NCBI GenBank assembly: GCA_965218435.1
Contig: CBDCKW010000009.1
Location: forward strand, 2,848,001-2,912,000
DNA from: Truepera sp.
GTDB taxonomy: Bacteria; Deinococcota; Deinococci; Deinococcales; Trueperaceae
Direction of reading: 5' to 3'
Length of the DNA stretch: 64,000 bases
Positions 1 to 10,297 of this stretch are shown piece by piece. A model generated the notes under the pieces. It did not search any database, had not been told where the DNA came from, and worked only from the letters and a program-made list of their open reading frames with translations. A program made the position numbers and the translations under genes. The stretch's first letter is position 1. Each line of letters starts with the position of its first letter.

Positions 1-1185
1 CTCGGCTTGAATGCCGATGTCGGCCAAGTACGAAGCAATGGCGGACGCGACCGGCTCAGCTGAGGGAAAATACGGGCGTGAGACGGGCATGTACCACATC
101 TGGGTCGAGAACCCGTCTGCGAAGCCAGCTTCGCTGAGGAGCTGTTTGGCCATCTCGGGGTCGTAACTGTAAGGCTTTAAGTCTTCGCTGTACCCGATTA
201 GACCCGGCGGGATAAACTGCGACGCGACCTGTGCGCCGTCACCAAAAAACGCCGTCACGACTTCGTTCCAGTCTACGGCGTGCGCGATAGCTTGCCGGAC
301 TTTGACGTTTTGCAGTGGCTTATTTCCCTGGTGCAACCCGATGTAACCGATGTTGAGGTTCGAGTCGGCTACAGCGGTCTCGAGGCTATCGTCATTTTCA
401 ATCGTCTGCGCGTCGTCGGGCGAGAGGTTGACAGCGATGTCAATGCTGCCCGCTTGGAGTTCAGCGAGGCGAGCGGTCGAGTCTTCGATGCCGCGAAACA
501 CGAGACGCTCAACGCCCGCGGGCTCACCCCAATAGTCAGGGTTGCGCTCTAGGGTGAGCTGACTGCCGTCTACCCATTCGACAAACTGGAATGGCCCGGT
601 CCCGACCGACCCGACCGCAGGCTGACCGTAGTCCGCCCCGGCTTTTTTGACCGCCGTGGGGCTGTGAATCCCGAAGTAAGACGACGACATCGCCGCAGGC
701 AAAAAGCCCATCGGTTTGGTGAGGTCGAGCTCAAGGGTCAGGTCATCAATCACCTTCGCGCCCTCGACGACCGCAGCGTCGTCGCCCTTAAAACCGCCGA
801 AAACGTAGCCCCACGCTTCGTAGATTTTGCCCTGGTCACGAAACCCATACTCGAAGTTCGGGTCGTTCCAGCGGTCGATGTTAAACTTGACGGCTTCAGC
901 GTTAAAGGGCGTGCCGTCTTGAAAGGTGACGCCTTTACGAAACTTAAAGGTCCAGACGGTGCCGTCGTCGTTTGACGACCACTCAGTCGCTAGGCCGGGT
1001 TGGAGGTCGGTGCCGCCGGGTTCGACGAAAACCAGGTTTTCAACGATCTGATACGCCGCTGTCAGCGAGTTACCGTCGGTCGCGTCGTCCAAGCTGACGG
1101 GTAGGCCGCTGCCACCAAAAACCAGCGTTTGGGCCGAGCCCAAGCCTAAGAAGAGCAAGAGGGTTACGATTAGCAGTTTCTTCAT
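1..1185 (-). CDS. ABC transporter peptide-binding protein (family 5 SBP), 3' end runs off the window
   Basis: Not in the ORF track. Reverse strand from ATG 1185 reads MKKLLIVTLLLFLGLGSAQTLVFGGSGLPVSLDD...PGLATEWSSNDDGTVWTFKFRKGVTFQDGTPFNAEAVKFNIDR, a family-5 signature. GGAGG RBS at 1190-1194. Confidence 0.9.
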   Translation of the reverse strand, partial: MKKLLIVTLLLFLGLGSAQTLVFGGSGLPVSLDDATDGNSLTAAYQIVENLVFVEPGGTDLQPGLATEWSSNDDGTVWTFKFRKGVTFQDGTPFNAEAVKFNIDRWNDPNFEYGFRDQGKIYEAWGYVFGGFKGDDAAVVEGAKVIDDLTLELDLTKPMGFLPAAMSSSYFGIHSPTAVKKAGADYGQPAVGSVGTGPFQFVEWVDGSQLTLERNPDYWGEPAGVERLVFRGIEDSTARLAELQAGSIDIAVNLSPDDAQTIENDDSLETAVADSNLNIGYIGLHQGNKPLQNVKVRQAIAHAVDWNEVVTAFFGDGAQVASQFIPPGLIGYSEDLKPYSYDPEMAKQLLSEAGFADGFSTQMWYMPVSRPYFPSAEPVASAIASYLADIGIQAE

Positions 1186-1411
1186 GTCACCTCCAAAAAT
1201 TACATCGGGGCGGCGTCGGGTCTTTCAGAGACCTAACCGTAAACCTGGCTACAACCCAACACCGCGCAATGCTCATCAAAGCTTAACATAAGGTCATCGC
1301 AAGCTCGTGAGGACAAATCTGGGAGAAGGTTTGAGTTTTGTCTTTGTGGTAGCCGAGAAGAAAAGAGCAAGGAGGCAGTAAATAGCTTGGTCTTAATGCT
1401 CAATTCCTGCT

Positions 1412-2125
1412 TTAGGCAGGAACTAGCACGCCCTGCTCGAGCCTAAACCGCCCGTCTACGCCTTTGACCAACCCCTCGTCGTGTGTGACCATTACCACGG
1501 CGCTCCCCTCTTCGCGGGCGAGCTGCGCCAACAGCGCGTACACGTCGGCGGCCGAAACACGGTCTAAACTGCCGGTCGGTTCGTCGGCCAAAATCACCTG
1601 CGGGCGGCTGTAGAGCGACCGGGCCACCGCGACCCGTTGCCGCTCACCCCCGGACAAGCGTTTAGGTAAAAACGTCGTACGTTCTGAAAGACCCACCCGC
1701 GCCAACAGCTCTTTCCCTCTCGCTTCGTCCGGCTTTCCACCAATACGCCCCGGCAAGGTCACGTTTTCTAAGACGGTGAGGTCCTCGAGGAGATAGTGCT
1801 GCTGAAACACGAGCCCTAACCGCTCCGCCCGTTTCGCCGCCAAGACCCGCTGCGGCAACGCGTCAATTCGGCGCTTACCCCAATAGATTTCTCCGGCTGT
1901 GGGCCGGTCTAACCCGCCGAGCAGGTGCAAAAGCGTGCTTTTTCCTGAACCCGAAGGTCCCAAAATGGCGATCACTTGCGCCGGATACACGCTCAGGTCA
2001 ACGCCCCGGAGAATCTCCAAGTTCGCCCCCGGCGTCGTAAACGTTCGGGTCAGCCCCGTGCAAGAGAGCGCCGCAACGCCCACAAAATCTGCGGGTGACG
2101 GTTGCAGCATTTGAGAACGGGTCAC
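1412..2125 (-). CDS. ABC transporter ATP-binding protein (LolD/MacB-like)
   Basis: Walker A GPSGSGKS, LSGGERQR signature, ILADEPTG. TATAGT 6 nt before the GTG (leaderless). Confidence 0.88.
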   Translation of the reverse strand: MTRSQMLQPSPADFVGVAALSCTGLTRTFTTPGANLEILRGVDLSVYPAQVIAILGPSGSGKSTLLHLLGGLDRPTAGEIYWGKRRIDALPQRVLAAKRAERLGLVFQQHYLLEDLTVLENVTLPGRIGGKPDEARGKELLARVGLSERTTFLPKRLSGGERQRVAVARSLYSRPQVILADEPTGSLDRVSAADVYALLAQLAREEGSAVVMVTHDEGLVKGVDGRFRLEQGVLVPA

Positions 2126-2352
2126 GCCGCTACTATACCGCTGACCCTACCGACTTCTGCGTCGCACCTGACCTGCTTTTGTAGCGGCGCTCAACCAGGC
2201 AAACGTCAAAAAGGTCACCTGTAACGAGCGTCTAAACGTCTACTGTAGAACCCTTGGCTACGGAGCCGCTTGCGAAACATTTGTAAGACGGTTGTAAGAC
2301 TTCTGTCAGAGAGGAGGCGTCATAGTGGTCATGAGCACCCAGGAGGTCTCTC

Positions 2353-3294
2353 GTGAACGGGGTCATGAGTAAAACCGAAAAAGAAACGATACAAACGCCC
2401 TCAGGCTTGACGATTCGGCGTCAGGGTGAGGCTCTGGAGACAGTTAGCTCGAAGGCTGGCTTGTTTAGGCTTCTGGTCTCTCATTCACGCTCTGAAATAA
2501 CCGAAATAAACCTCAATGAAGGGAGTCGGTTCATAATTACACCCGCTGACTCAGTAGTTGAAACGTTTTATGTACTTTCAGGGCAACTAATCAGTGAGCA
2601 ATTTGGAAACCATGATTTTATCAATCAGGACAACTATATAGTCACTGAGAAGCTTTCAGAAGATTGTATATTCACAGCGTCTACAGATACGAGGCTGTTA
2701 CACATTACAGAAAGGCCACAGTTTCATACCTTTAGCGAGGACATAGGCCAACTCAGAGAGCTTGCAGTCGAAGTAGAAGTTAAAGACGGCTACACCGCAG
2801 ACCACTGTGAAAGGCTGCAAAATCTGTCTTATGCTACTGGCCAAGAACTCGGACTGAGTCCGGCAAACTTATATCTTCTAGATATTGGGGCTTATCTTCA
2901 CGACGTAGGCAAGATACGTGTGCCGCTCTCTATCTTAAATAAACCCGCTAAACTGACTCCTAAAGAATGGGAGATAATTAAACAGCACCCTCTATATGGC
3001 CGTGAGCTTTTGGACCAAACGTTTATGAGAGAAGCGAGTACAATTGTAGAGCAACACCATGAACGCTTGGATGGTAGCGGATACCCCTATGGGTTATCTG
3101 GTAGTGAGTTACTGGTTGAAGCCTCTATCGTTGCGGTAGCTGATACGTTTGACGCCATGACGACAAACCGCCCATACCATAAGGCAGCAACACAGGCCGA
3201 GGCACTTGCTGAAATTTGCAGATGCGTAGGAATTCACTATCCTAAAGAAGTCGTCAAGGCTTTCTATTCGGCATTGAGAGCGGGTAAGATATAG
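2353..3294 (+). CDS. Cupin-like N-terminal domain + HD-GYP cyclic-dinucleotide phosphodiesterase
   Basis: HDVGK and HHERLDGSGYPYGL motifs. N-terminal beta-rich segment (ETFYVLSG) is cupin-like. Visibly more AT-rich than the flanks. Confidence 0.85.
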   Translation: MNGVMSKTEKETIQTPSGLTIRRQGEALETVSSKAGLFRLLVSHSRSEITEINLNEGSRFIITPADSVVETFYVLSGQLISEQFGNHDFINQDNYIVTEKLSEDCIFTASTDTRLLHITERPQFHTFSEDIGQLRELAVEVEVKDGYTADHCERLQNLSYATGQELGLSPANLYLLDIGAYLHDVGKIRVPLSILNKPAKLTPKEWEIIKQHPLYGRELLDQTFMREASTIVEQHHERLDGSGYPYGLSGSELLVEASIVAVADTFDAMTTNRPYHKAATQAEALAEICRCVGIHYPKEVVKAFYSALRAGKI

Positions 3295-3365
3295 AAGAGA
3301 AAAGAAATAGCAGCCTCTCTTATATCTATGGTTTACACTAGCGACCATTTTGAGGAAGTGTATGT

Positions 3366-3427
3366 CGTGAAATGTGCCACTTTTCGTATCGTATGATATT
3401 GACGTGAGACTTCTATTCATATAGACT
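3366..3427 (+). promoter_or_regulatory. Sigma70-type promoter TTGACG-N17-TAGACT with an upstream Crp-like box
   Basis: -35 at 3399-3404, -10 at 3422-3427. CGTGA-N6-CCACT at 3366-3381 is centred about 61-62 nt upstream of the expected +1. Confidence 0.55.
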
Positions 3428-3506
3428 TGCCCCAAGAAGGCAAACGCCAGAGTGTCTTCTTCAAGAGCGTTACTCGACGTTCTACTCAAAAGTATAGGGG
3501 TGAAAA

Positions 3507-3551
3507 ATGGTCCGAAAAGTCGTTTGCGAAGGCTTCAAAGTCACCAAATAA
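3507..3551 (+). CDS. Putative 14-aa micropeptide MVRKVVCEGFKVTK
   Basis: RBS AGGGGTGA just upstream, own promoter upstream, terminator directly downstream. Confidence 0.55.
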   Translation: MVRKVVCEGFKVTK

Positions 3552-3570
3552 GTAGTTCTCCGTCGTAAAG

Positions 3571-3603
3571 AGCAGACTGTGCATATCTCCAGTCTGCTTT
3601 TTT
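3571..3603 (+). terminator. Rho-independent terminator
   Basis: AGCAGACTG-N10-CAGTCTGCT followed by a T run. Confidence 0.8.
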
Positions 3604-3913
3604 GTTGCCTTTACGCCGTCAGCCTCGAGTAAGAATCTTGTAAGAGCCCTTGGTTTATCTTCTGTTCATAAGGCGCATCCGGACCATGCGCTTTACGCCC
3701 CTGCACGGTGACTCTGGCGATGAACCGTGTGGGGCACCCCTGTTTGTCCTCTCTTTGTCGTTGTTTCAGCTGCCAAACCACCCCTAATAACGTTCGTAAA
3801 CACGCGGTTTATGGGCTGAAAGTGTAGCTCAGCACCTCTGCAAAACTTCTCATATGGTGTGGTAGGCTTTTCTCTAATGAAGCGTTTAGGTTTCTCTTTT
3901 AGCGGGGCCGCTC

Positions 3914-4606
3914 GTGGCTGAACTCGAGCAGTTTCTCGTCCAAGTTCCGCTCTTTAACGGTGCGCCGCAGCGGGCGCTTGAAATTGCCGCTCAAGCTTTG
4001 CAGCCTCGCACCTTTCCACCTGACACCGTGCTCTTTCAGGAGGGCGACCAAGGCGAAGTCCTATATATTCTCAACAAAGGTATCGTCAAACTCTTTAAGA
4101 TTGACTTAGAAGGTCACGAAAAAACGCTCGCCATCCTTAAACCACCCGAATTTTTCGGTGAGATGGCGCTGTTAGGTGAGCAGGGCCGGAGCGCCACCGC
4201 GCTCTCAATCCGCGAAACGCTCGTCTATTTGCTGTTCAAAGACGATTTTCAGCGGCTCCTAAAAGAGTATCCGAGCATCAGTATGAACGTTGCCAATACG
4301 CTTTCACAGCGGCTTTACGGAGCCAACGACGAGGCGCAAGTCTTGTCGTATAAAGATGCGCAGGGGCGCGTGGCGTATGTGATTTTGCGGCTCTATTGGG
4401 GCGGCCTGATTGACTTTAACGACGAAGGCAAGGCGCTCTTACGGCTGACCCACCAAGAACTCGCCAGCCTCGCCGGAACGAGCCGCGAGACGGTGACGCG
4501 GGCGCTTAAAGCTTTGGAAGAAGAGCACGTGATCAGTACGCGGCCTAAAGAGGTCTTGATCCAAGACCCCGAGGGCTTAGAGGAGATCTTGCACGGCGTT
4601 CGCTGA
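3914..4606 (+). CDS. Crp/Fnr-family transcriptional regulator
   Basis: cNMP pocket FFGEMALLGEQGRSATA. Crp-type HTH LTHQELASLAGTSRETVTRAL. Confidence 0.92.
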   Translation: MAELEQFLVQVPLFNGAPQRALEIAAQALQPRTFPPDTVLFQEGDQGEVLYILNKGIVKLFKIDLEGHEKTLAILKPPEFFGEMALLGEQGRSATALSIRETLVYLLFKDDFQRLLKEYPSISMNVANTLSQRLYGANDEAQVLSYKDAQGRVAYVILRLYWGGLIDFNDEGKALLRLTHQELASLAGTSRETVTRALKALEEEHVISTRPKEVLIQDPEGLEEILHGVR

Positions 4607-4670
4607 TTCTGCAACCCTCGAGGCGTTTCAAGCTGTTCCATCGCCCAAAGGCCGCGAGCACCTAGCAGCG

Positions 4671-5900
4671 ATGCAGCTCGCGGGCCGCGACATCAACCGA
4701 GCCGTTTCTGAGCTGTATGAGGTCTACGGCCCGGTGTTCGCCTTTGGTGTGGGGCCGGTGCGTTTTATCTGGTTGGTCGGGCCGGAGGCGAACAAGTTCG
4801 TCTTGGAGGACGCCGCCGAACACTTTCAACTCGGTCCGGCTTACGGGTTTTTACGCACCATCGGCGGCGACACCGCGCTGATTACCAGCGATGAACCCGA
4901 GCATTTGCGGCGGCGGCGGCTCGTCCAACCCGCGTTTCACCGCTCGCGTTTGGCGCTGCTAGATACGCTGTTGCAGACACGACTTACGGAGCTGTTTGAA
5001 AGCTGGGTCGGGCGCAGCGTAGACCTCTACCAAGAGGTGCAGGGACGGGTGCTCGCCATCATCTGCGAGGTGCTGTTGGGGCAGGCGGCGCTTACGACCC
5101 CTCTGACCGCCGACATCGCCCGGATGATGCGTTACGCCAACCTGCCGTTTCAGTTCCAGCTCGTCAAACTGCGCGTGCCCGGTAGCCCGTGGGCGAAGTT
5201 TTTAGCAGCCAGAAACCGCGCCGACGCCGCTATCTACCGTGAAATTGCGCGGCGGCGTAAAAGCGGCGACGTTGGTGACGACGTACTCGGCCTGCTCTTA
5301 GAAGCGCGTGATGAGACCGGGCAGGGCCTCAGCGAGGTTGAGATGCGCGACCAAGCGATCAGTCTGGTTTCCGCCGGTTTCGATACGACGAGCGCGGCGC
5401 TGACGTGGGCGGCCTATGAGTTGCACCGGCAACCTGAACTGTTAGCTGAGTTGCGAACCAAACTTTCAGGTACAGCCGAACCGCCACTACTTGCGCAGAC
5501 CATCAAAGAGACGCTGCGCCTCTACCCACCGGCCCCCGCAGGATTACGGCAGACGACGAGAGATTTAACCTTTGGCGGCTATCACCTTCCGGCGGGGCAC
5601 CGAGCCGCATTTTCGATCTACGCGTCGCACCGTTTGGCGTCGGTTTACCCGGAACCGCTGCGGTTTCACCCACAACGTTGGGAGACGTTTTCACCGTCGC
5701 CCCACAGTTATCTACCTTTTGGTAACGGCGCACGTTACTGCATCGGCTCAGGTTTGGCGACCAGGATTTTGACGTTGGGACTGGGAAAACTCGTGCGAGA
5801 TTACACGCTGACGCCGCTCCGGACTGAACCTGTCCAAGAGGCCGGGAACACGCTGCATCCGCGTGGCGGTTTGCCGGTCAGGGTTGAACGGGTGGGCTGA
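4671..5900 (+). CDS. Cytochrome P450
   Basis: AGFDTT I-helix, ETLR K-helix, heme motif PFGNGARYCIG. Confidence 0.93.
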   Translation: MQLAGRDINRAVSELYEVYGPVFAFGVGPVRFIWLVGPEANKFVLEDAAEHFQLGPAYGFLRTIGGDTALITSDEPEHLRRRRLVQPAFHRSRLALLDTLLQTRLTELFESWVGRSVDLYQEVQGRVLAIICEVLLGQAALTTPLTADIARMMRYANLPFQFQLVKLRVPGSPWAKFLAARNRADAAIYREIARRRKSGDVGDDVLGLLLEARDETGQGLSEVEMRDQAISLVSAGFDTTSAALTWAAYELHRQPELLAELRTKLSGTAEPPLLAQTIKETLRLYPPAPAGLRQTTRDLTFGGYHLPAGHRAAFSIYASHRLASVYPEPLRFHPQRWETFSPSPHSYLPFGNGARYCIGSGLATRILTLGLGKLVRDYTLTPLRTEPVQEAGNTLHPRGGLPVRVERVG

Positions 5901-6540
5901 GACGCGCCGAAAGCTGAGTCTCGAGTCCACGTTTCACTTCGGGCCAGTCGGAGTAGATTACCGAAAAGAGCAGCGTATCGCGGATATGCCCGTCTTTCAT
6001 CACGCGTTCGGCGCGCATCGTGCCCTCAAAAACCGCGCCCAACTTGCGAATCGCCCTTTCAGAACGGGTGTTCCGGGCGTCGGTATAGAAGTAGACGCGT
6101 AACAAGTCGAGGGTTTCAAAGGCGTAGGTAAGCATGAGGTATTTGCTCTCTAAGTTGACCGCGGTTCCCTGTGCAGAAGGCGCAAGCCAGGTAAAACCCA
6201 ACTCACAGTTGCGGTTGGCAGTGTTGAGACTCGAGTACCGGCTCGTTCCGACGATTTGACCGTCTACGAGCAGCACGAACGGGTAGGCTGTACCCGCGTC
6301 GCGTTCACGAAAGGCCCTGGCAAAATAGGCTTCGGCTTCGGCGGCGGTTGTCGGCGTTGAGGTGAAGCGGTACACTTCCGGGTTCGCTGTGGCAATCTCT
6401 AAGAGCGGCCCCAAGTGCTCTTCACCTAACGGCTCAAGCCTCACCACCTGACCTCGTAACACGAGGGGATGCTGAACCGGTAAGCTGCTAGACAACCCGG
6501 ACTCAACCAACCTGCAAATCTGCCTTGGGCAGCGTGGCAA
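5878..6540 (-). CDS. GNAT N-acetyltransferase (RimJ/RimL-like); true start probably slightly downstream
   Basis: ELGFTWL...QGTAVN, NTRSERAIRKLGAVFEG. Confidence 0.85.
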   Translation of the reverse strand: MPRCPRQICRLVESGLSSSLPVQHPLVLRGQVVRLEPLGEEHLGPLLEIATANPEVYRFTSTPTTAAEAEAYFARAFRERDAGTAYPFVLLVDGQIVGTSRYSSLNTANRNCELGFTWLAPSAQGTAVNLESKYLMLTYAFETLDLLRVYFYTDARNTRSERAIRKLGAVFEGTMRAERVMKDGHIRDTLLFSVIYSDWPEVKRGLETQLSARLSPPVQP

Positions 6541-7180
6541 CGTCAGACTCTAGCGGTTGCGCGGCGAGGTCGAGGTCGAGCGGGACGATCTCCGCGTGTT
6601 CAATCGGGCGCTGCACGCCGAGCATACTGCTGATCACGACCGCGTGCGAGACGACGATTAGACTATCTAAATGCTTGTAACGCCGCAGCACGTTCAGCAC
6701 GCGTTCACGCACCTCTTCGACGCTCTCCCAACTCCGCGCTTCAGGGGGCGGCGGTTGTCGCTCAGCGACCGGTACACGCCGATCCTCCGAAGGTTTGTAC
6801 GCCGCTCGGCTCCGGGTACGCCGGTCTGCAAACGGAATAAAACCCGTGTAGTAAGAGAGCTGCTGATTGGCGTGGCGGATGATGTCGTCGTCCATCTCAC
6901 CGAGGGGGTCTTTTTGCGGTAGCCACTCGTGCAGGTCGTATTCGACGTGCAGGGGTTTGTCGAGCGCCCGCGAAAGCCGCGCCGCCGACTCTAAAGCCCG
7001 CGCGTAAGACGAACTGAGGATGCCCTGGGCCGCTTCTAACCGGTAATCGCTGGCGATCACGTCAATCTGCACGCGGCCTTTAGGGGTTAAGGGCGCAAAT
7101 GAGCGCGCCCAGCCGCGTACGCCGCGCGTCTCGAGCGCATCCCAATCAGTTTCACCATGACGGATAAAAAAAAGTTTCAT
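6503..7180 (-). CDS. Histidine phosphatase family protein
   Basis: N-terminal RHGET motif, SSYARALESA, C-terminal VSHA. Confidence 0.85.
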   Translation of the reverse strand: MKLFFIRHGETDWDALETRGVRGWARSFAPLTPKGRVQIDVIASDYRLEAAQGILSSSYARALESAARLSRALDKPLHVEYDLHEWLPQKDPLGEMDDDIIRHANQQLSYYTGFIPFADRRTRSRAAYKPSEDRRVPVAERQPPPPEARSWESVEEVRERVLNVLRRYKHLDSLIVVSHAVVISSMLGVQRPIEHAEIVPLDLDLAAQPLESDVATLPKADLQVG

Positions 7181-7276
7181 GTCACATGCCTTTGGAGCGT
7201 ACTCCAGGAGAAGTTAGACGCGCCAGCATGGTCCAGATTAGCATAAGGCTGCGGCTGGCAACAGTCATCAAGAAAT

Positions 7277-7450
7277 AGCGAGGCAACATCGTATATTGTC
7301 TGGTGCATTGCGTCTCGAGGGGCCCCGGCGCCTCCCTTTCGCAGTCGTCGAGTTGTGGGTGCAGCCTGACAAACAGTAGGGCTCAGGCAACGAACAGTTG
7401 CAGCGTAGCAAGCCTCGGGGCAGACGAATATACGATGCTTAACTTTCGCT
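7277..7450. other. Intergenic element closed by a long inverted repeat (structured RNA or MITE-like)
   Basis: CATCGTATATTGTCTG (7287-7302) pairs with CAGACGAATATACGATG (7421-7437) with one bulge. Internal hairpins GCCTGA..TCAGGC and GCAAC..GTTGC. Confidence 0.45.
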
Positions 7451-7615
7451 CCGGTAGCCTTGATCTTTTACTCAGCGAGTGCTTGGGTTGCAAGTCTTGA
7501 TAGAAGCAGAGGAACGTTTTGCGTGCATGTTTTTGAGGTTTGAACCTGACTCTACCGATCAGTATTACGCTTATATAATGCTGTGACAGGGCGCAATCTG
7601 TACTACCATAGACGG

Positions 7616-8548
7616 GTGCAAACACTAGACAGTTTTTACCGACGCGCGGTGCTTTCGGTGGCCGACGCACCGCCCATCACCAAGTTTATCAAGCAGCGAG
7701 GATTTAATCTGGGCGTCTCGAGGTTTGTCGCCGGTGAACAGCTGCCCGAAGTTCTAGGGGCGGTGCGGGCGCTCCGTCAGGACGGCTTGGAAAGTATCCT
7801 CGACCTGTTGGGCGAATTTGTTGACACCGAAGCGGGCGCGGCGGCGATGACCGAGGAGGTTTTGGCGACGTTGGAGGCCCTCAGGGGCGTCCCCGGCGAA
7901 CCCTACATGAGCGTCAAACCGACCCAGCTCGGGCTCGGCGTCAGCTTTGAGCTCGGCCTGCAGAACGCCACCAAGGTGGCTGAGAAGGCTAGAGACATCG
8001 GCGCACGGCTCTGTTTAGACATGGAAAACGTCCCTTATGTAGACGGGACTTTAGAGCTTTTCGGTGCGCTACAAGACAAGGGTTATAGCCACGTCTCGAC
8101 GGTGCTGCAGAGTTATTTATACCGGACGATGGACGACCTCGAGGCTCTGTTAGAACGCACGCCCAAACCCACGCTGCGAATCGTCAAGGGGGCGTACCGT
8201 GAGAGCGAAGGGGTCGCCTATCAGAACAAAGCGAAAGTAGACGAAACCTACCGGGAGCTGGTCTACCGAGGGCTCGAGGGCGGCGCTCAAATCGGGGTGG
8301 CGACCCACGACGAGAGTATCTTGAGCGAAGTCGAAGCGTTCGTACGCGGGGCCGGAATAGGGCCGGAGCGTTACGAGTTCCAGTTTTTGTACGGCGTCAA
8401 ACCGGCGCTGCAGCGCCGCCTGGTCGCCAAAGGTCACCGGGTGCGTATCTATATCCCCTACGGTCACGACTGGTACGGTTACTTCAGCCGCCGTTTGGCC
8501 GAACGCCCCGCCAACTTGCTCTTTGTGGTACGCGGCCTTTTTGGTTAG
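7616..8548 (+). CDS. Monofunctional proline dehydrogenase
   Basis: SVKPTQLGL, DME, RIVKGAY, VATHD, YIPYG, YFSRRLAERPAN. TACCAT 6 nt before GTG 7616. Confidence 0.93.
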   Translation: MQTLDSFYRRAVLSVADAPPITKFIKQRGFNLGVSRFVAGEQLPEVLGAVRALRQDGLESILDLLGEFVDTEAGAAAMTEEVLATLEALRGVPGEPYMSVKPTQLGLGVSFELGLQNATKVAEKARDIGARLCLDMENVPYVDGTLELFGALQDKGYSHVSTVLQSYLYRTMDDLEALLERTPKPTLRIVKGAYRESEGVAYQNKAKVDETYRELVYRGLEGGAQIGVATHDESILSEVEAFVRGAGIGPERYEFQFLYGVKPALQRRLVAKGHRVRIYIPYGHDWYGYFSRRLAERPANLLFVVRGLFG

Positions 8549-8743
8549 ACACAGTTGCCGCGCAGCTGAAGGTTGAAGTGAACGCTTTCGGTTTACAAAC
8601 TTCCGGTTGTAGTCTGACTTCTAGATTCTCTATGCCAATCTAGAGAAGCGTCTTATAGCTGACACCTAAGCGTTCACAAAACTGAGTACAGTCGTATTTG
8701 AGTATAGTTGTGCATATATACAGCAGCCATGTTAAGGAGCGTT

Positions 8744-10297
8744 ATGGAACTATTTGAACCCTATCAGGTCGAGCCGTATTCGGATTTTTCGCAGAAAAGC
8801 GTACAAGACGCCTACAAAGAGGCGTTAGAACAAGTTCGTGGCCAACTCGGGCAAGCTTATCCGCTCGTTATCGGCGGCGAAGGGGTCACGACGACGCACG
8901 GGTGGCTCGAGTCCGTTAATCCGTGCAACACCGAGCAAGTTGTCGGGCGCAGCGCCAAAGCGGGGCGCAAAGAGGTCGAACGGGCGATGAACGCGGCGTG
9001 GACCGCGTATGAAAGTTGGTCGCAGTTGCCGATGAGCACCCGTGCGCGGACACTCGTCAAGCTCGCAGCAGTGCTGCGCCGCCGCAAATTTGAACTCTCG
9101 GCGTGGGAAACGTTTGAGGCGAGTAAAAGTTATCTCGAGGCCGAGGCTGACGTAGCCGAAGCGATTGACTTTTGCGAATACTACGCGCGGCAGGCGTTAA
9201 AACTAGACGGGCCGCTCGAGACCTACGATTACCCCGGCGAAGAAAACACTTCGTTTTTAGTCCCGATTGGCGTCGGTGTGGTGATTCCGCCGTGGAACTT
9301 TTTGCTGGCCATTTTAGTTGGCACGGCGGTCGGGCCGGTCGTCGTCGGCAACACGGTGATCGTCAAGCCCTCACCCGATACCCCGATTATCGCGCAGAAG
9401 TTTATGGAATGCGTTGCCGAAGCGGGGTTTCCGCCGGGTGTGATTAACCTCGTCACCGGGGCAGACGCCGACATCGGTGACCTGCTCGTAGACCATCCAC
9501 GCACCCGGTTTATCAACTTTACGGGGTCGCTCGAGACGGGTTTACGGATTCATGAACGCGCGGCCAAGCTCCAACCGGGGCAGAAGTGGCTAAAAAAGGT
9601 CTATACCGAACTCGGCGGCAAAGACGCGCTCATCGTTGACGAAACCGCCGATCTGGACTACGCCGCCGCCGCTGCCGTTGCCAGCGCGTTCGGGTTTCAG
9701 GGGCAGAAGTGCTCGGCGCTCAGCCGTCTGATCGTCGTGGACGAGGTCTACGACGCGCTCTTAGAGAAAGTCGTCGAGCGTACCCGGCAGCTCTCGTTCG
9801 GCCCCGCTGAAATTAACAGCGATGTGGGCGCGGTTATCAACCAAAAAGCCGTAGACAAGATCATGGGCTATATCGAAAACGGTAAGACCGAAGCGAAGCT
9901 CGTATTGGGCGGCAACCGGGGCGATGAGGCGGGCTTCTTTATCGAGCCGACCATCTTTGCTGAAGTGCCGCAGAGCGCGTCTATCGCCTGTGAAGAGATT
10001 TTTGGGCCGGTCTTGTCGGTGATGCGGGCGAGGGACTTCGACCACGCTTTAGAGCTAGCCAATTCAACCGTTTACGGGCTGACGGGCGGTGTGATCAGTC
10101 AAGACCGCACCCGCTTAGAACAGGCGCGGCGCGAGTTTCACGTCGGCAACTTGTACTTAAACCGCAAGATTACCGGGGCGCTCGTCGGCGTGCAACCGTT
10201 CGGCGGCTTTAACCTGTCGGGTTCAAACGCCAAAGCCGGGGGGCCGGACTATCTGCGGCTGTTTATGGAGATGAAAACGGTCGCTGAGCGGTATTAA
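8744..10297 (+). CDS. pruA: L-glutamate gamma-semialdehyde (P5C) dehydrogenase
   Basis: ALDH motifs PPWNF, FTGS, ELGGK, GQKCSA, EEIFGP, KAGGPDYL. AAGGAG RBS before ATG 8744. Adjacent to proline dehydrogenase. Confidence 0.92.
   Translation: MELFEPYQVEPYSDFSQKSVQDAYKEALEQVRGQLGQAYPLVIGGEGVTTTHGWLESVNPCNTEQVVGRSAKAGRKEVERAMNAAWTAYESWSQLPMSTRARTLVKLAAVLRRRKFELSAWETFEASKSYLEAEADVAEAIDFCEYYARQALKLDGPLETYDYPGEENTSFLVPIGVGVVIPPWNFLLAILVGTAVGPVVVGNTVIVKPSPDTPIIAQKFMECVAEAGFPPGVINLVTGADADIGDLLVDHPRTRFINFTGSLETGLRIHERAAKLQPGQKWLKKVYTELGGKDALIVDETADLDYAAAAAVASAFGFQGQKCSALSRLIVVDEVYDALLEKVVERTRQLSFGPAEINSDVGAVINQKAVDKIMGYIENGKTEAKLVLGGNRGDEAGFFIEPTIFAEVPQSASIACEEIFGPVLSVMRARDFDHALELANSTVYGLTGGVISQDRTRLEQARREFHVGNLYLNRKITGALVGVQPFGGFNLSGSNAKAGGPDYLRLFMEMKTVAERY

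What the first reader, a model, noticed from the sequence alone, without database searches (positions are those of the whole stretch)
2353..4606. Unannotated Crp-box-driven 14-aa micropeptide between a cupin-HD-GYP phosphodiesterase and a Crp regulator
Seen: a complete ~170-nt transcription unit too small for the ORF track. It consists of TTGACG-N17-TAGACT (3399-3427), a 5' hairpin (GAAGGCA..TGTCTTC), RBS AGGGGTGA, ORF 3507-3551 (MVRKVVCEGFKVTK) and an intrinsic terminator (3571-3603). A Crp-like site CGTGA-N6-CCACT (3366-3381) is centred about -61.5. Established: -61.5 is the class I CRP activation position; HD-GYP domains hydrolyse cyclic dinucleotides; the neighbouring Crp has an intact cNMP pocket and an RE..R recognition helix. 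Inference: a compact nucleotide-signalling circuit in which a Cys-containing peptide is the output, or the ligand/inhibitor of the cupin sensor domain. The HD-GYP gene and peptide unit are both AT-rich and lack CTCGAG, suggesting they were acquired together. I do not recognise this as a described system.
Basis: partly seen in the sequence, partly recalled or inferred. Interest (0 to 1): 0.8.

Follow-up and report, generated by a model that had tools for sequence, protein, structure and literature searches.

The report
Antisense-silenced peptide for c-di-GMP enzyme
A tiny conserved gene beside an enzyme of the type that destroys the bacterial lifestyle messenger c-di-GMP encodes a cut-down, non-exported version of a peptide that accompanies this enzyme in two bacterial phyla, and an overlooked small RNA next to it is predicted to switch the peptide off, which points to a likely new form of peptide control of this messenger.

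Summary
All listed elements are present, and the 14-codon ORF is kept with constant length and mostly third-position changes in 4 related loci. The Crp story is weak: the cassette was inserted beside crp in one lineage, the box is 7/10 (376 of 1242 random intergenic windows reach that), its spacing varies, and the genome has at least 8 Crp paralogues.

The 14-mer is a signal-less derivative of a secreted partner found beside 46 of 56 Trueperaceae and 38 of 45 Bacillota cupin-HD-GYP loci (0 of 79 other HD-GYP loci). The partners share a short C-terminal tail, and 10 of 55 Trueperaceae loci carry a c-di-GMP-II-type riboswitch.

It is complementary to the peptide's start codon, ribosome-binding site and leader loop, with three compensatory double changes. 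It shares a TGTAAGA direct-repeat box with the enzyme's promoter.

Best model (inferred): the peptide inhibits the enzyme from inside the cell, and one activator turns on both the enzyme and the anti-peptide sRNA. Binding and expression are untested. It works like Rap-Phr plus csRNA-comC but belongs to neither family; I did not find it in the library searched.

The parts
2282..2326 (+). Three direct repeats (TGTAAGA, TGTAAGA, TGTCAGA; 11-bp period) 10 bp above a CATAGT -10 element: predicted activator-dependent promoter of the enzyme gene
   Evidence: same arrangement in G004, G005, L076; not found upstream of the G001 gene, G003 flank missing
2353..3294 (+). Cupin-HD-GYP phosphodiesterase, 313 aa; His-free cupin (res. 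29-119) with invariant E48, E70, G77; binuclear-type HD-GYP with all metal ligands; RPYH in place of RxY[K/R]
   Evidence: Pfam; AF2 pLDDT 90; Foldseek 4mcw, 4r8z, cupins 8hjy, 1y9q, 6b8w; column counts in 79 homologues
3366..3381 (+). Crp-family-like site (7/10), possible input of an unidentified Crp paralogue
   Evidence: 8/10 in G004, G005, L076, spacing to -35 17/15/15/13; no good site in G001, G003
3399..3427 (+). Sigma-70-type promoter of the peptide gene (TTGACG-N17-TAGACT)
   Evidence: TTGACG kept in 5 of 6 loci
3436..3483 (+). Two-hairpin 5' leader; the hairpin-1 loop shows GCCAGAG, invariant in 6 of 6 loci
   Evidence: z -2.4; 7 of 15 pairs with double changes, 2 of 500 shuffles; no Rfam match
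3496..3551 (+). RBS and 14-aa ORF; a signal-less derivative of the secreted partner; last 7 residues (EGFKVTK) match the family tail
   Evidence: tail ranks 8 of 4858 genome C-termini on a profile built without the 14-mers
3567..3604 (+). Intrinsic terminator of the peptide mRNA
   Evidence: z -4.2; hairpin plus U tract in the relatives
3628..3661 (+). Direct-repeat box (AGTAAGA-N4-TGTAAGA) 10 bp above a TATCTT -10: predicted promoter of the sRNA
   Evidence: box and TAnnnT in 6 of 6 loci
3668..3745 (+). Antisense sRNA, ~78 nt (ends predicted): 3680-3687 pairs with the start codon region, 3697-3702 with the RBS, loop 3711-3719 with leader loop 3445-3453
   Evidence: 88-93% identical to the three closest loci against 47-50% for the spacer behind it; one copy in each of 5 genomes of the genus
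3863..3921 (+). Separate crp promoter (extended -10) and leaderless uORF 3877-3921 overlapping the crp start; not part of the cassette
   Evidence: same layout in 7 of 7 loci, including those without the cassette
3914..4606 (+). Crp-family regulator; conserved core gene next to the insertion site
   Evidence: (36 of 46 genomes)

Best explanation
The window encodes a conserved 14-residue peptide, a shortened signal-less form of the secreted partner that accompanies cupin-HD-GYP enzymes, which likely binds and inhibits the neighbouring predicted c-di-GMP phosphodiesterase from inside the cell, while an adjacent ~78-nt small RNA is predicted to block the peptide's translation.

Steps:
(1) Shown by comparison: cupin-HD-GYP genes travel with a signal-peptide gene whose constant part is a 5-8 residue tail.
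(2) Shown by tree: the 14-mer lineage is nested among secreted forms and kept the RNA-paired start and the tail.
(3) Predicted from compensatory changes: the sRNA kisses the leader loop and covers the RBS and AUG.
(4) Shown as sequence, inferred as function: one direct-repeat activator box drives both the enzyme and the sRNA, within a regulon of c-di-GMP enzymes and pilins.
(5) Inferred: the tail docks on the acidic, metal-free cupin.
(6) Inferred from logic: making the enzyme while silencing its peptide is a coherent switch only if the peptide inhibits.
For: Partner gene at 46 of 56 Trueperaceae loci. An automatic rule gives 34 of 56 against 2 of 66 control HD-GYP loci. A partner profile hits 38 of 45 Bacillota rows, 30 of them not in the training set, and 0 of 79 non-cupin HD-GYP loci. 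Two named plasmid loci agree.

Short forms keep or repeat only the tail (L073, L163, L057, L283). In the model of the long partner the tail is unstructured, pLDDT about 52. The 14-mer clade (100/98) lies inside the G001/G003 clade (97/94). Tail ranks are 8, 71, 1 and 136 of 4858.

The sRNA duplex is beaten by 0, 0, 0, 13, 1 and 1 of 500 shuffles, and there are three double changes in the AUG helix. The peptide leader is the only dual-seed site in the genome besides the sRNA's own antisense strand.

The box is intergenic in 23 of 34 hits against 12% intergenic DNA, and lies before GGDEF/EAL/HD-GYP and pilin genes. c-di-GMP-II-type riboswitches occur at 10 of 55 Trueperaceae loci scanned and c-di-GMP-I at 3 of 20 Bacillota loci.
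Against: The sign (inhibitor) rests on logic alone. The 14-mer tails score low against family members (5.6, 0.2, 11.0, -1.5 against mostly 8-23), and two have lost the aromatic residue. Codons 1-4 can be explained by RNA pairing. The AUG helix has two breaks, one in this genome. The cognate sRNA is the best partner in only 4 of 6 rows, and raw duplex energy ranks the peptide's start only 251 of 5920 sites. Ten of 56 Trueperaceae loci show no partner. The enzyme has RPYH where 58 of 79 homologues have Arg, so its substrate may differ. The six sRNA loci are one genus and not independent.
Confidence: 0.5

Rival explanations
1. The peptide is a decaying remnant: loss of the signal peptide ended its role as a ligand, and the transcript is kept as an RNA partner (decoy) of the sRNA.
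For: Tail scores drift and F is replaced by V in 2 of 4. Codons 5-15 are only 58-79% identical while the sRNA is 88-93%. The N-terminal codons are explained by pairing.
Against: Length and stop position are fixed although the stop codon differs, changes fall mostly on third positions and are conservative. The sRNA has no second dual-seed target that a decoy would protect.
Confidence: 0.2
2. The peptide binds the enzyme but activates it, or acts on another receptor (for example the sensor upstream of the direct-repeat activator).
For: The sign could not be read from the relatives' riboswitches (inconclusive). The long partners are exported proteins or lipoproteins that could meet a membrane sensor.
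Against: A signal-less peptide cannot reach an outward-facing sensor, yet the lineage kept it beside the enzyme. An activator silenced whenever the enzyme is made would be incoherent for a cell-internal peptide. No kinase gene was seen in the cassette.
Confidence: 0.17
3. One reading: the neighbouring Crp activates the peptide from -61.5 and the peptide is its output.
For: A Crp-like site is kept in 4 of 6 loci amid diverged DNA (8/10 in three; 56 of 1242 random windows reach 8).
Against: Spacing varies by 4 bp; no good site in G001 or G003; crp is not adjacent there and sits at an empty site; at least 8 paralogues could bind. This reading also does not explain the sRNA or the family pairing.
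Confidence: 0.08
4. A type I toxin-antitoxin pair: a toxic peptide held off by a dedicated antisense RNA on a mobile cassette.
For: A one-to-one antisense RNA with two pairing sites; a low-GC cassette that changed position.
Against: The 14-mers have no hydrophobic stretch (maximum 10-residue hydropathy 0.3-1.0). The hydrophobic part in G001/G003 looks like a signal peptide shared with the family. The sRNA promoter looks activator-dependent, not constitutive.
Confidence: 0.05

Closest known systems
RRNPP peptide signalling (Rap-Phr, NprR-NprX, PlcR-PapR); PMC13220807, passages read; Phr inhibiting Rap is recalled
   Same: A cytoplasmic protein is encoded beside a small precursor whose short C-terminal piece is the conserved part; export and Opp re-import would fit the secreted relatives.
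   Different: The receptor has a cupin fold, not TPR. The output is a cyclic-dinucleotide hydrolase. Many partners are 90-240 aa proteins of no known family. The window's peptide has no signal peptide. The phylum is Deinococcota as well as Bacillota.
CiaR-csRNA-comC of Streptococcus pneumoniae; PMC4507080, passages read
   Same: An activator-driven sRNA of similar size pairs with the RBS and AUG of a peptide-signal precursor mRNA.
   Different: Here there is one dedicated sRNA encoded directly behind its target, with an added loop-loop contact; no sibling copies were found. The peptide's likely target is a cytoplasmic enzyme, not a histidine kinase.
HD-GYP c-di-GMP phosphodiesterases (PmGH 4MCW, PA4781 4R8Z); bioRxiv 10.1101/2021.11.05.467447, passages read
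   Same: Fold, metal ligands and GYP motif; lacks the third-metal Glu, so binuclear type.
   Different: N-terminal cupin domain ('cupin' and 'peptide' occur 0 times in that main text; supplements not seen); RxxH in place of RxY[K/R].
Type I toxin-antitoxin loci with two-site pairing (par/Fst type; recalled)
   Same: A neighbouring antisense RNA acts at the translation start and at a loop.
   Different: The peptide is hydrophilic, derives from a secreted ligand-like family, and the RNAs are in tandem on one strand.

Membership tests
RRNPP peptide systems | TPR-type cytoplasmic receptor | tested here: not met
   AF2 model is a beta-barrel cupin plus HD-GYP; no TPR in Pfam
RRNPP peptide systems | Adjacent gene for a small peptide precursor | tested here: met
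   46 of 56 and 38 of 45 loci
RRNPP peptide systems | Precursor is exported by a signal peptide | tested here: not met
   Not met for the window's 14-mer; signal-type N-termini (hydropathy rule, not a signal-peptide predictor) in 41 relatives
RRNPP peptide systems | Re-import by an oligopeptide permease | tested here: inconclusive
   16 family-5 binding-protein matches in the genome, one at window 1-1185; no test of substrate
RRNPP peptide systems | Peptide binds its receptor | not testable with these tools
HD-GYP phosphodiesterase | Metal ligands (H, HD, H, HH, D) and GYP motif | tested here: met
   H151, H183, D184, H212, H235, H236, D264, G243-Y244-P245 invariant in 79 of 79
HD-GYP phosphodiesterase | RxY[K/R] guanine-binding motif for c-di-GMP | tested here: inconclusive
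   RPYH here; Arg in 58, His in 8 of 79; the paper read notes RxxH variants without an activity
HD-GYP phosphodiesterase | Hydrolyses c-di-GMP | not testable with these tools
   Needs an assay
Cupin superfamily | Double-stranded beta-helix barrel | tested here: met
   Foldseek hits 8hjy, 1y9q, 2q30, 6b8w at E 3e-6 to 6e-6
Cupin superfamily (metal-binding) | His-based metal motif (recalled) | tested here: not met
   No conserved His within residues 29-119; E48, E70, G77 invariant
csRNA-comC type control | sRNA pairs with RBS and AUG of the peptide mRNA | tested here: met
   Predicted pairing with three compensatory changes; not tested in cells
csRNA-comC type control | Several sibling sRNAs under CiaR | tested here: not met
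   One copy per genome, no Rfam match; activator not identified
c-di-GMP-II riboswitch (for the window's leader) | Rfam RF01786/RF03169 match | tested here: not met
   No match in the window or L053-L057, although 10 relatives match
Class I Crp-activated promoter | Crp site fixed at -61.5 | tested here: inconclusive
   True in this genome only; 2 to 4 bp closer in three relatives, no good site in two
Type I toxin-antitoxin | Small hydrophobic membrane toxin | tested here: not met
   Maximum hydropathy 0.3-1.0 in the four 14-mers

The most novel reading that the evidence does not exclude
Cupin-HD-GYP enzymes are a new class of peptide receptor that couples a short C-terminal peptide directly to c-di-GMP breakdown in at least two phyla. 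This lineage privatised the signal: it deleted the export signal, leaving a 14-residue intracellular inhibitor that a dedicated, co-evolving antisense RNA removes whenever the pilus/c-di-GMP activator switches the enzyme on.
Probability: 0.4. Interest if true: 0.87.

Novelty: new variant of a known kind. Interest (0 to 1): 0.72.

Why it matters
Known cytoplasmic peptide receptors are TPR proteins that act on phosphorelays or transcription. A cupin that reads a peptide and gates a second-messenger enzyme would wire cell-to-cell signalling straight into the biofilm/motility switch.

This locus is the easiest member to test, because the whole ligand is a 14-mer needing no export or processing and nature supplies compensatory mutants for the RNA pair. 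It also catches a secreted signal turning into a private intracellular regulator, and a switch of control from riboswitch to antisense RNA, within one family.

Tried and rejected

Expression: no RNA holder listed. The laid DNA contigs (3 of 4 listed runs) cover the unit but say nothing on transcription.

Rfam on window 1-10000: nothing up to E 1.

The remnant-of-a-cold-shock-gene idea (recalled resemblance) was dropped once the homologous slot held secreted peptides.

Paralogues of leader or sRNA in the genome: the BLAST hits lie inside coding genes. The covariance models found only the genus: leader 5 of 128 genomes; sRNA 5 strong plus 2 weak hits of 22-25 bits, not followed. The pattern scan of genome contigs gave 32 loci, 31 without either RNA; the one match was left out of the counts as not independent.

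A mirror ORF on the sRNA's minus strand (10 codons here) lacks the ATG in G003, and the box, -10 and U tract lie on the plus strand, so it was rejected.

ON/OFF logic of the relatives' riboswitches: inconclusive.

Longer homologues as natural fusions: they have N-terminal extensions only. L194 is a deletion that truncates the enzyme.

Partner proteins reach no curated cut-off in Pfam or NCBIfam. No solved fold above Z 2.9, which does not show that the fold is new. The Atlas lists only hypothetical-protein clusters and a weak lead for the cupin (0.76). A profile search for more partners could not be made.

The metagenome scan gave 1 full-length relative among 80 loci; the other 79 served as controls.
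Full report
1. OBSERVATION. Promoter, leader hairpin, RBS, 14-codon ORF, terminator and Crp-like site are all at the stated coordinates. The terminator folds far better than shuffles (z -4.2). The promoter consensus by itself is at chance level, and Rfam finds nothing in 1-10000. The genome belongs to the Trueperaceae, judged from a source's name for a homologue.

2. THE ORF IS CONSERVED. The intergenic DNA has strong matches in 2 of 60 other genomes, and a metagenome contig adds a fourth locus. All four read a 14-mer behind the same RBS: MVRKVVCEGFKVTK, MVRKIVCEGVRVNA, MIRKTVCEGFRVNG, MVRKIVCEGVRINA. Over the six pairwise comparisons, differences fall 19, 14 and 32 times on codon positions 1, 2 and 3, the stop stays in place though its codon changes, and replacements are conservative (pairs not independent).

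3. WHAT THE PEPTIDE DERIVES FROM. The full-length enzyme was found at 61 places in 33 of 128 family genomes. I examined 55 of these, leaving out six weak or partial ones, plus L076. At 46 of 56 loci a partner gene follows: 16 secreted-type peptides of 41-65 aa, 25 longer secreted proteins or lipoproteins ending in Asp-Pro plus 5 residues, the 4 signal-less 14-mers, and 1 fused remnant. Ten loci show none; for most of these only about 500 nt upstream were held. A fixed automatic rule scored 34 of 56 against 2 of 66 non-cupin HD-GYP loci. The tails read, for example, QKFRVNR, QKFEVNK, NGFKISN, DPFRFNR. Some short peptides repeat only the tail (L073, L163, L057). A 7-position profile built from 32 distinct tails without the 14-mers ranks the four 14-mer tails 8, 71, 1 and 136 among 4858 C-termini of this genome, but their scores (5.6, 0.2, 11.0, -1.5) are lower than most members'. 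In the enzyme tree (54 of 56 rows; two partial ones dropped) the 14-mer clade (100/98) is nested inside the clade of G001 and G003 (97/94), whose peptides begin with the same MVR start but carry a signal peptide (midpoint root). The 14-mer is therefore best read as an internal deletion that kept the start and the tail.

4. BEYOND THE PHYLUM. Full-length cupin-HD-GYP proteins are numerous among 50%-identity representatives. Two named Bacillota plasmids have a signal-peptide gene 15-25 nt behind the enzyme. In samples of 401 and 401 Bacillota genomes I held 45 rows after dropping one duplicate. A partner profile hit 38 of them at E up to 1: 8 downstream genes that were in the training set and 30 that were not, nearly all upstream (E 2e-7 to 0.3, all ending in Asp-Pro plus a short tail; L313 and L322 share one gene). 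Three more long partners and one 41-aa peptide were seen by eye; L301, L303 and L318 had none. The same profile gave no hit in 79 non-cupin HD-GYP loci. A Trueperaceae-only profile found four Bacillota partners at E below 1e-9. No partner reaches a Pfam or NCBIfam cut-off. The model of the paralogous partner in this genome is folded up to the Asp-Pro and disordered after it. Riboswitches tie the partners to c-di-GMP: class II types at 10 of 55 Trueperaceae loci scanned and class I at 3 of 20 Bacillota loci scanned of 45.

5. THE ENZYME. AF2 gives a confident model (pLDDT 90) with a cupin barrel and an HD-GYP domain. All metal ligands and GYP are invariant in 79 homologues. The third-metal Glu is replaced by Tyr147, which by the paper read (10.1101/2021.11.05.467447, passages) marks the binuclear type. 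The specificity motif is RPYH (Arg in 58 of 79), so the substrate should be tested. The cupin has no conserved His but invariant E48 and E70, which would suit a basic tail (inference).

6. THE MISSED sRNA. Behind the terminator lies a second unit: direct-repeat box, -10 element, two hairpins and a U tract, in 6 of 6 loci of the genus. It is 88-93% identical to the three closest loci, against 47-50% for the spacer behind it. It is a colinear mirror of the peptide mRNA's 5' end: 3680-3687 pairs with the AUG region, 3697-3702 with the RBS, and its loop with the invariant leader loop (7-9 pairs in all six). In the AUG helix both strands change together three times (+4 in G005, +6 in G001, +9 in G003) and the pair breaks twice (+9 here, +2 in G003). 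Duplexes beat all but 0, 0, 0, 13, 1 and 1 of 500 shuffles, and the cognate sRNA is best in 4 of 6 rows. Against this, raw energy ranks the peptide start only 251 of 5920 intergenic starts. The two seeds together occur only here and on the sRNA's own antisense strand. The leader's two hairpins covary (7 of 15 pairs, 2 of 500 shuffles; related sequences inflate this). Both RNAs were found only in this genus.

7. SHARED ACTIVATOR BOX. TGTAAGA repeats with an 11-bp period sit 10 bp above the -10 of both the enzyme gene (4 closest loci) and the sRNA. Genome-wide, 23 of 34 hits are intergenic against 12% intergenic DNA. Among 15 downstream genes scanned were two GGDEF-EAL, one TPR-GGDEF, one TPR-HD-GYP-GGDEF, one HD-GYP, PilA4, a GspH-like pilin, a receiver and a LuxR protein. 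Another box precedes a c-di-GMP-II riboswitch. The geometry is that of OmpR/PhoB- or SARP-type activators (recalled); I did not identify the protein.

8. CRP. In G001, G002 and G003 crp sits head to head with the ABC ATPase gene, with no cassette between, and in G001 and G003 the cassette lies elsewhere. crp has its own promoter and a leaderless uORF in 7 of 7 loci. The box scores 7/10, as do 376 of 1242 random intergenic windows. Three relatives score 8/10 (56 of 1242) at other spacings. At least 8 Crp paralogues are present. A Crp-family input remains possible; a circuit with this neighbour is not supported.

9. MECHANISM. Shown: pairing of the genes, descent of the 14-mer, sequence complementarity with compensation, and shared boxes. 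Inferred: translation, repression by the sRNA, binding to the cupin, and the inhibitory sign. With the activator off, the peptide would be made from its own promoter and hold any enzyme silent. With the activator on, enzyme and sRNA would rise together, the peptide would fall, and c-di-GMP hydrolysis would start: a coherent feed-forward switch. I put 0.5 on this, 0.2 on a vestigial peptide, 0.17 on activation or another receptor, 0.08 on the Crp circuit and 0.05 on toxin-antitoxin.

10. KNOWN SYSTEMS AND NOVELTY. It works like RRNPP signalling (PMC13220807, passages; 'HD-GYP' and 'cupin' occur 0 times there) and like csRNA control of comC (PMC4507080, passages), but it fails the defining tests of both. 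Searches of the held library for the combination found nothing describing it (listings only). Subscription papers and the bioRxiv supplement of the HD-GYP survey, which may list cupin fusions, were not seen. Earlier notes of this scan, read only after my own comparisons (some searches were blank), report the same enzyme-peptide pairing in other genomes and the same box in this one. They are unchecked and are not counted as support. In the listings I saw, none mentions the signal-less form or its antisense RNA.

11. VERDICT. A real and richer feature than reported: new variant of a known kind, interest 0.72.

Noticed in passing
window 3863-3921: Leaderless uORF (14-24 codons, sequence not conserved) whose stop overlaps or closely precedes the crp start in 7 of 7 loci; likely translational coupling of crp.
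   Followed up: partly
L068:1495-2909 (G000:C9:2188175-2189586): Second cupin-HD-GYP paralogue with a 105-aa lipoprotein partner ending in the Asp-Pro tail; the only long partner in this genome.
   Followed up: partly
L210:43-170 (G000:C9:3274042, +): Another box-driven sRNA candidate with CU-rich, anti-RBS-like stretches and a terminator.
   Followed up: no
L211, minus strand from G000:C9:3566051: Box-driven sRNA candidate that contains a 12-nt stretch like the 3' core of c-di-GMP-II aptamers; may be chance.
   Followed up: no
L216 (G000:C9:1747912-1747995, -): c-di-GMP-II riboswitch directly under a direct-repeat box, before a ~770-aa ORF with no Pfam match.
   Followed up: no
L057:981-1175; L073:783-911; L163:1008-1133: Precursors with 7, 2 and 2 copies of the tail, like multi-copy pheromone precursors.
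   Followed up: partly
L277-L322 partner genes: Invariant Asp-Pro just before the tail in all long partners; could be a cleavage site (acid-labile or self-cleaving; recalled chemistry, untested).
   Followed up: no
L157, L160, L162: Two tandem peptide genes behind one enzyme, some tails ending in Cys instead of Arg.
   Followed up: no
L194 (G130:C51): Deletion or assembly error that joins a truncated enzyme in frame to its partner.
   Followed up: yes
window 1-1185 (-): Family-5 (oligopeptide-type) ABC binding protein 1.2 kb upstream of the cassette; the same order in G004 and G005 reflects general synteny.
   Followed up: partly
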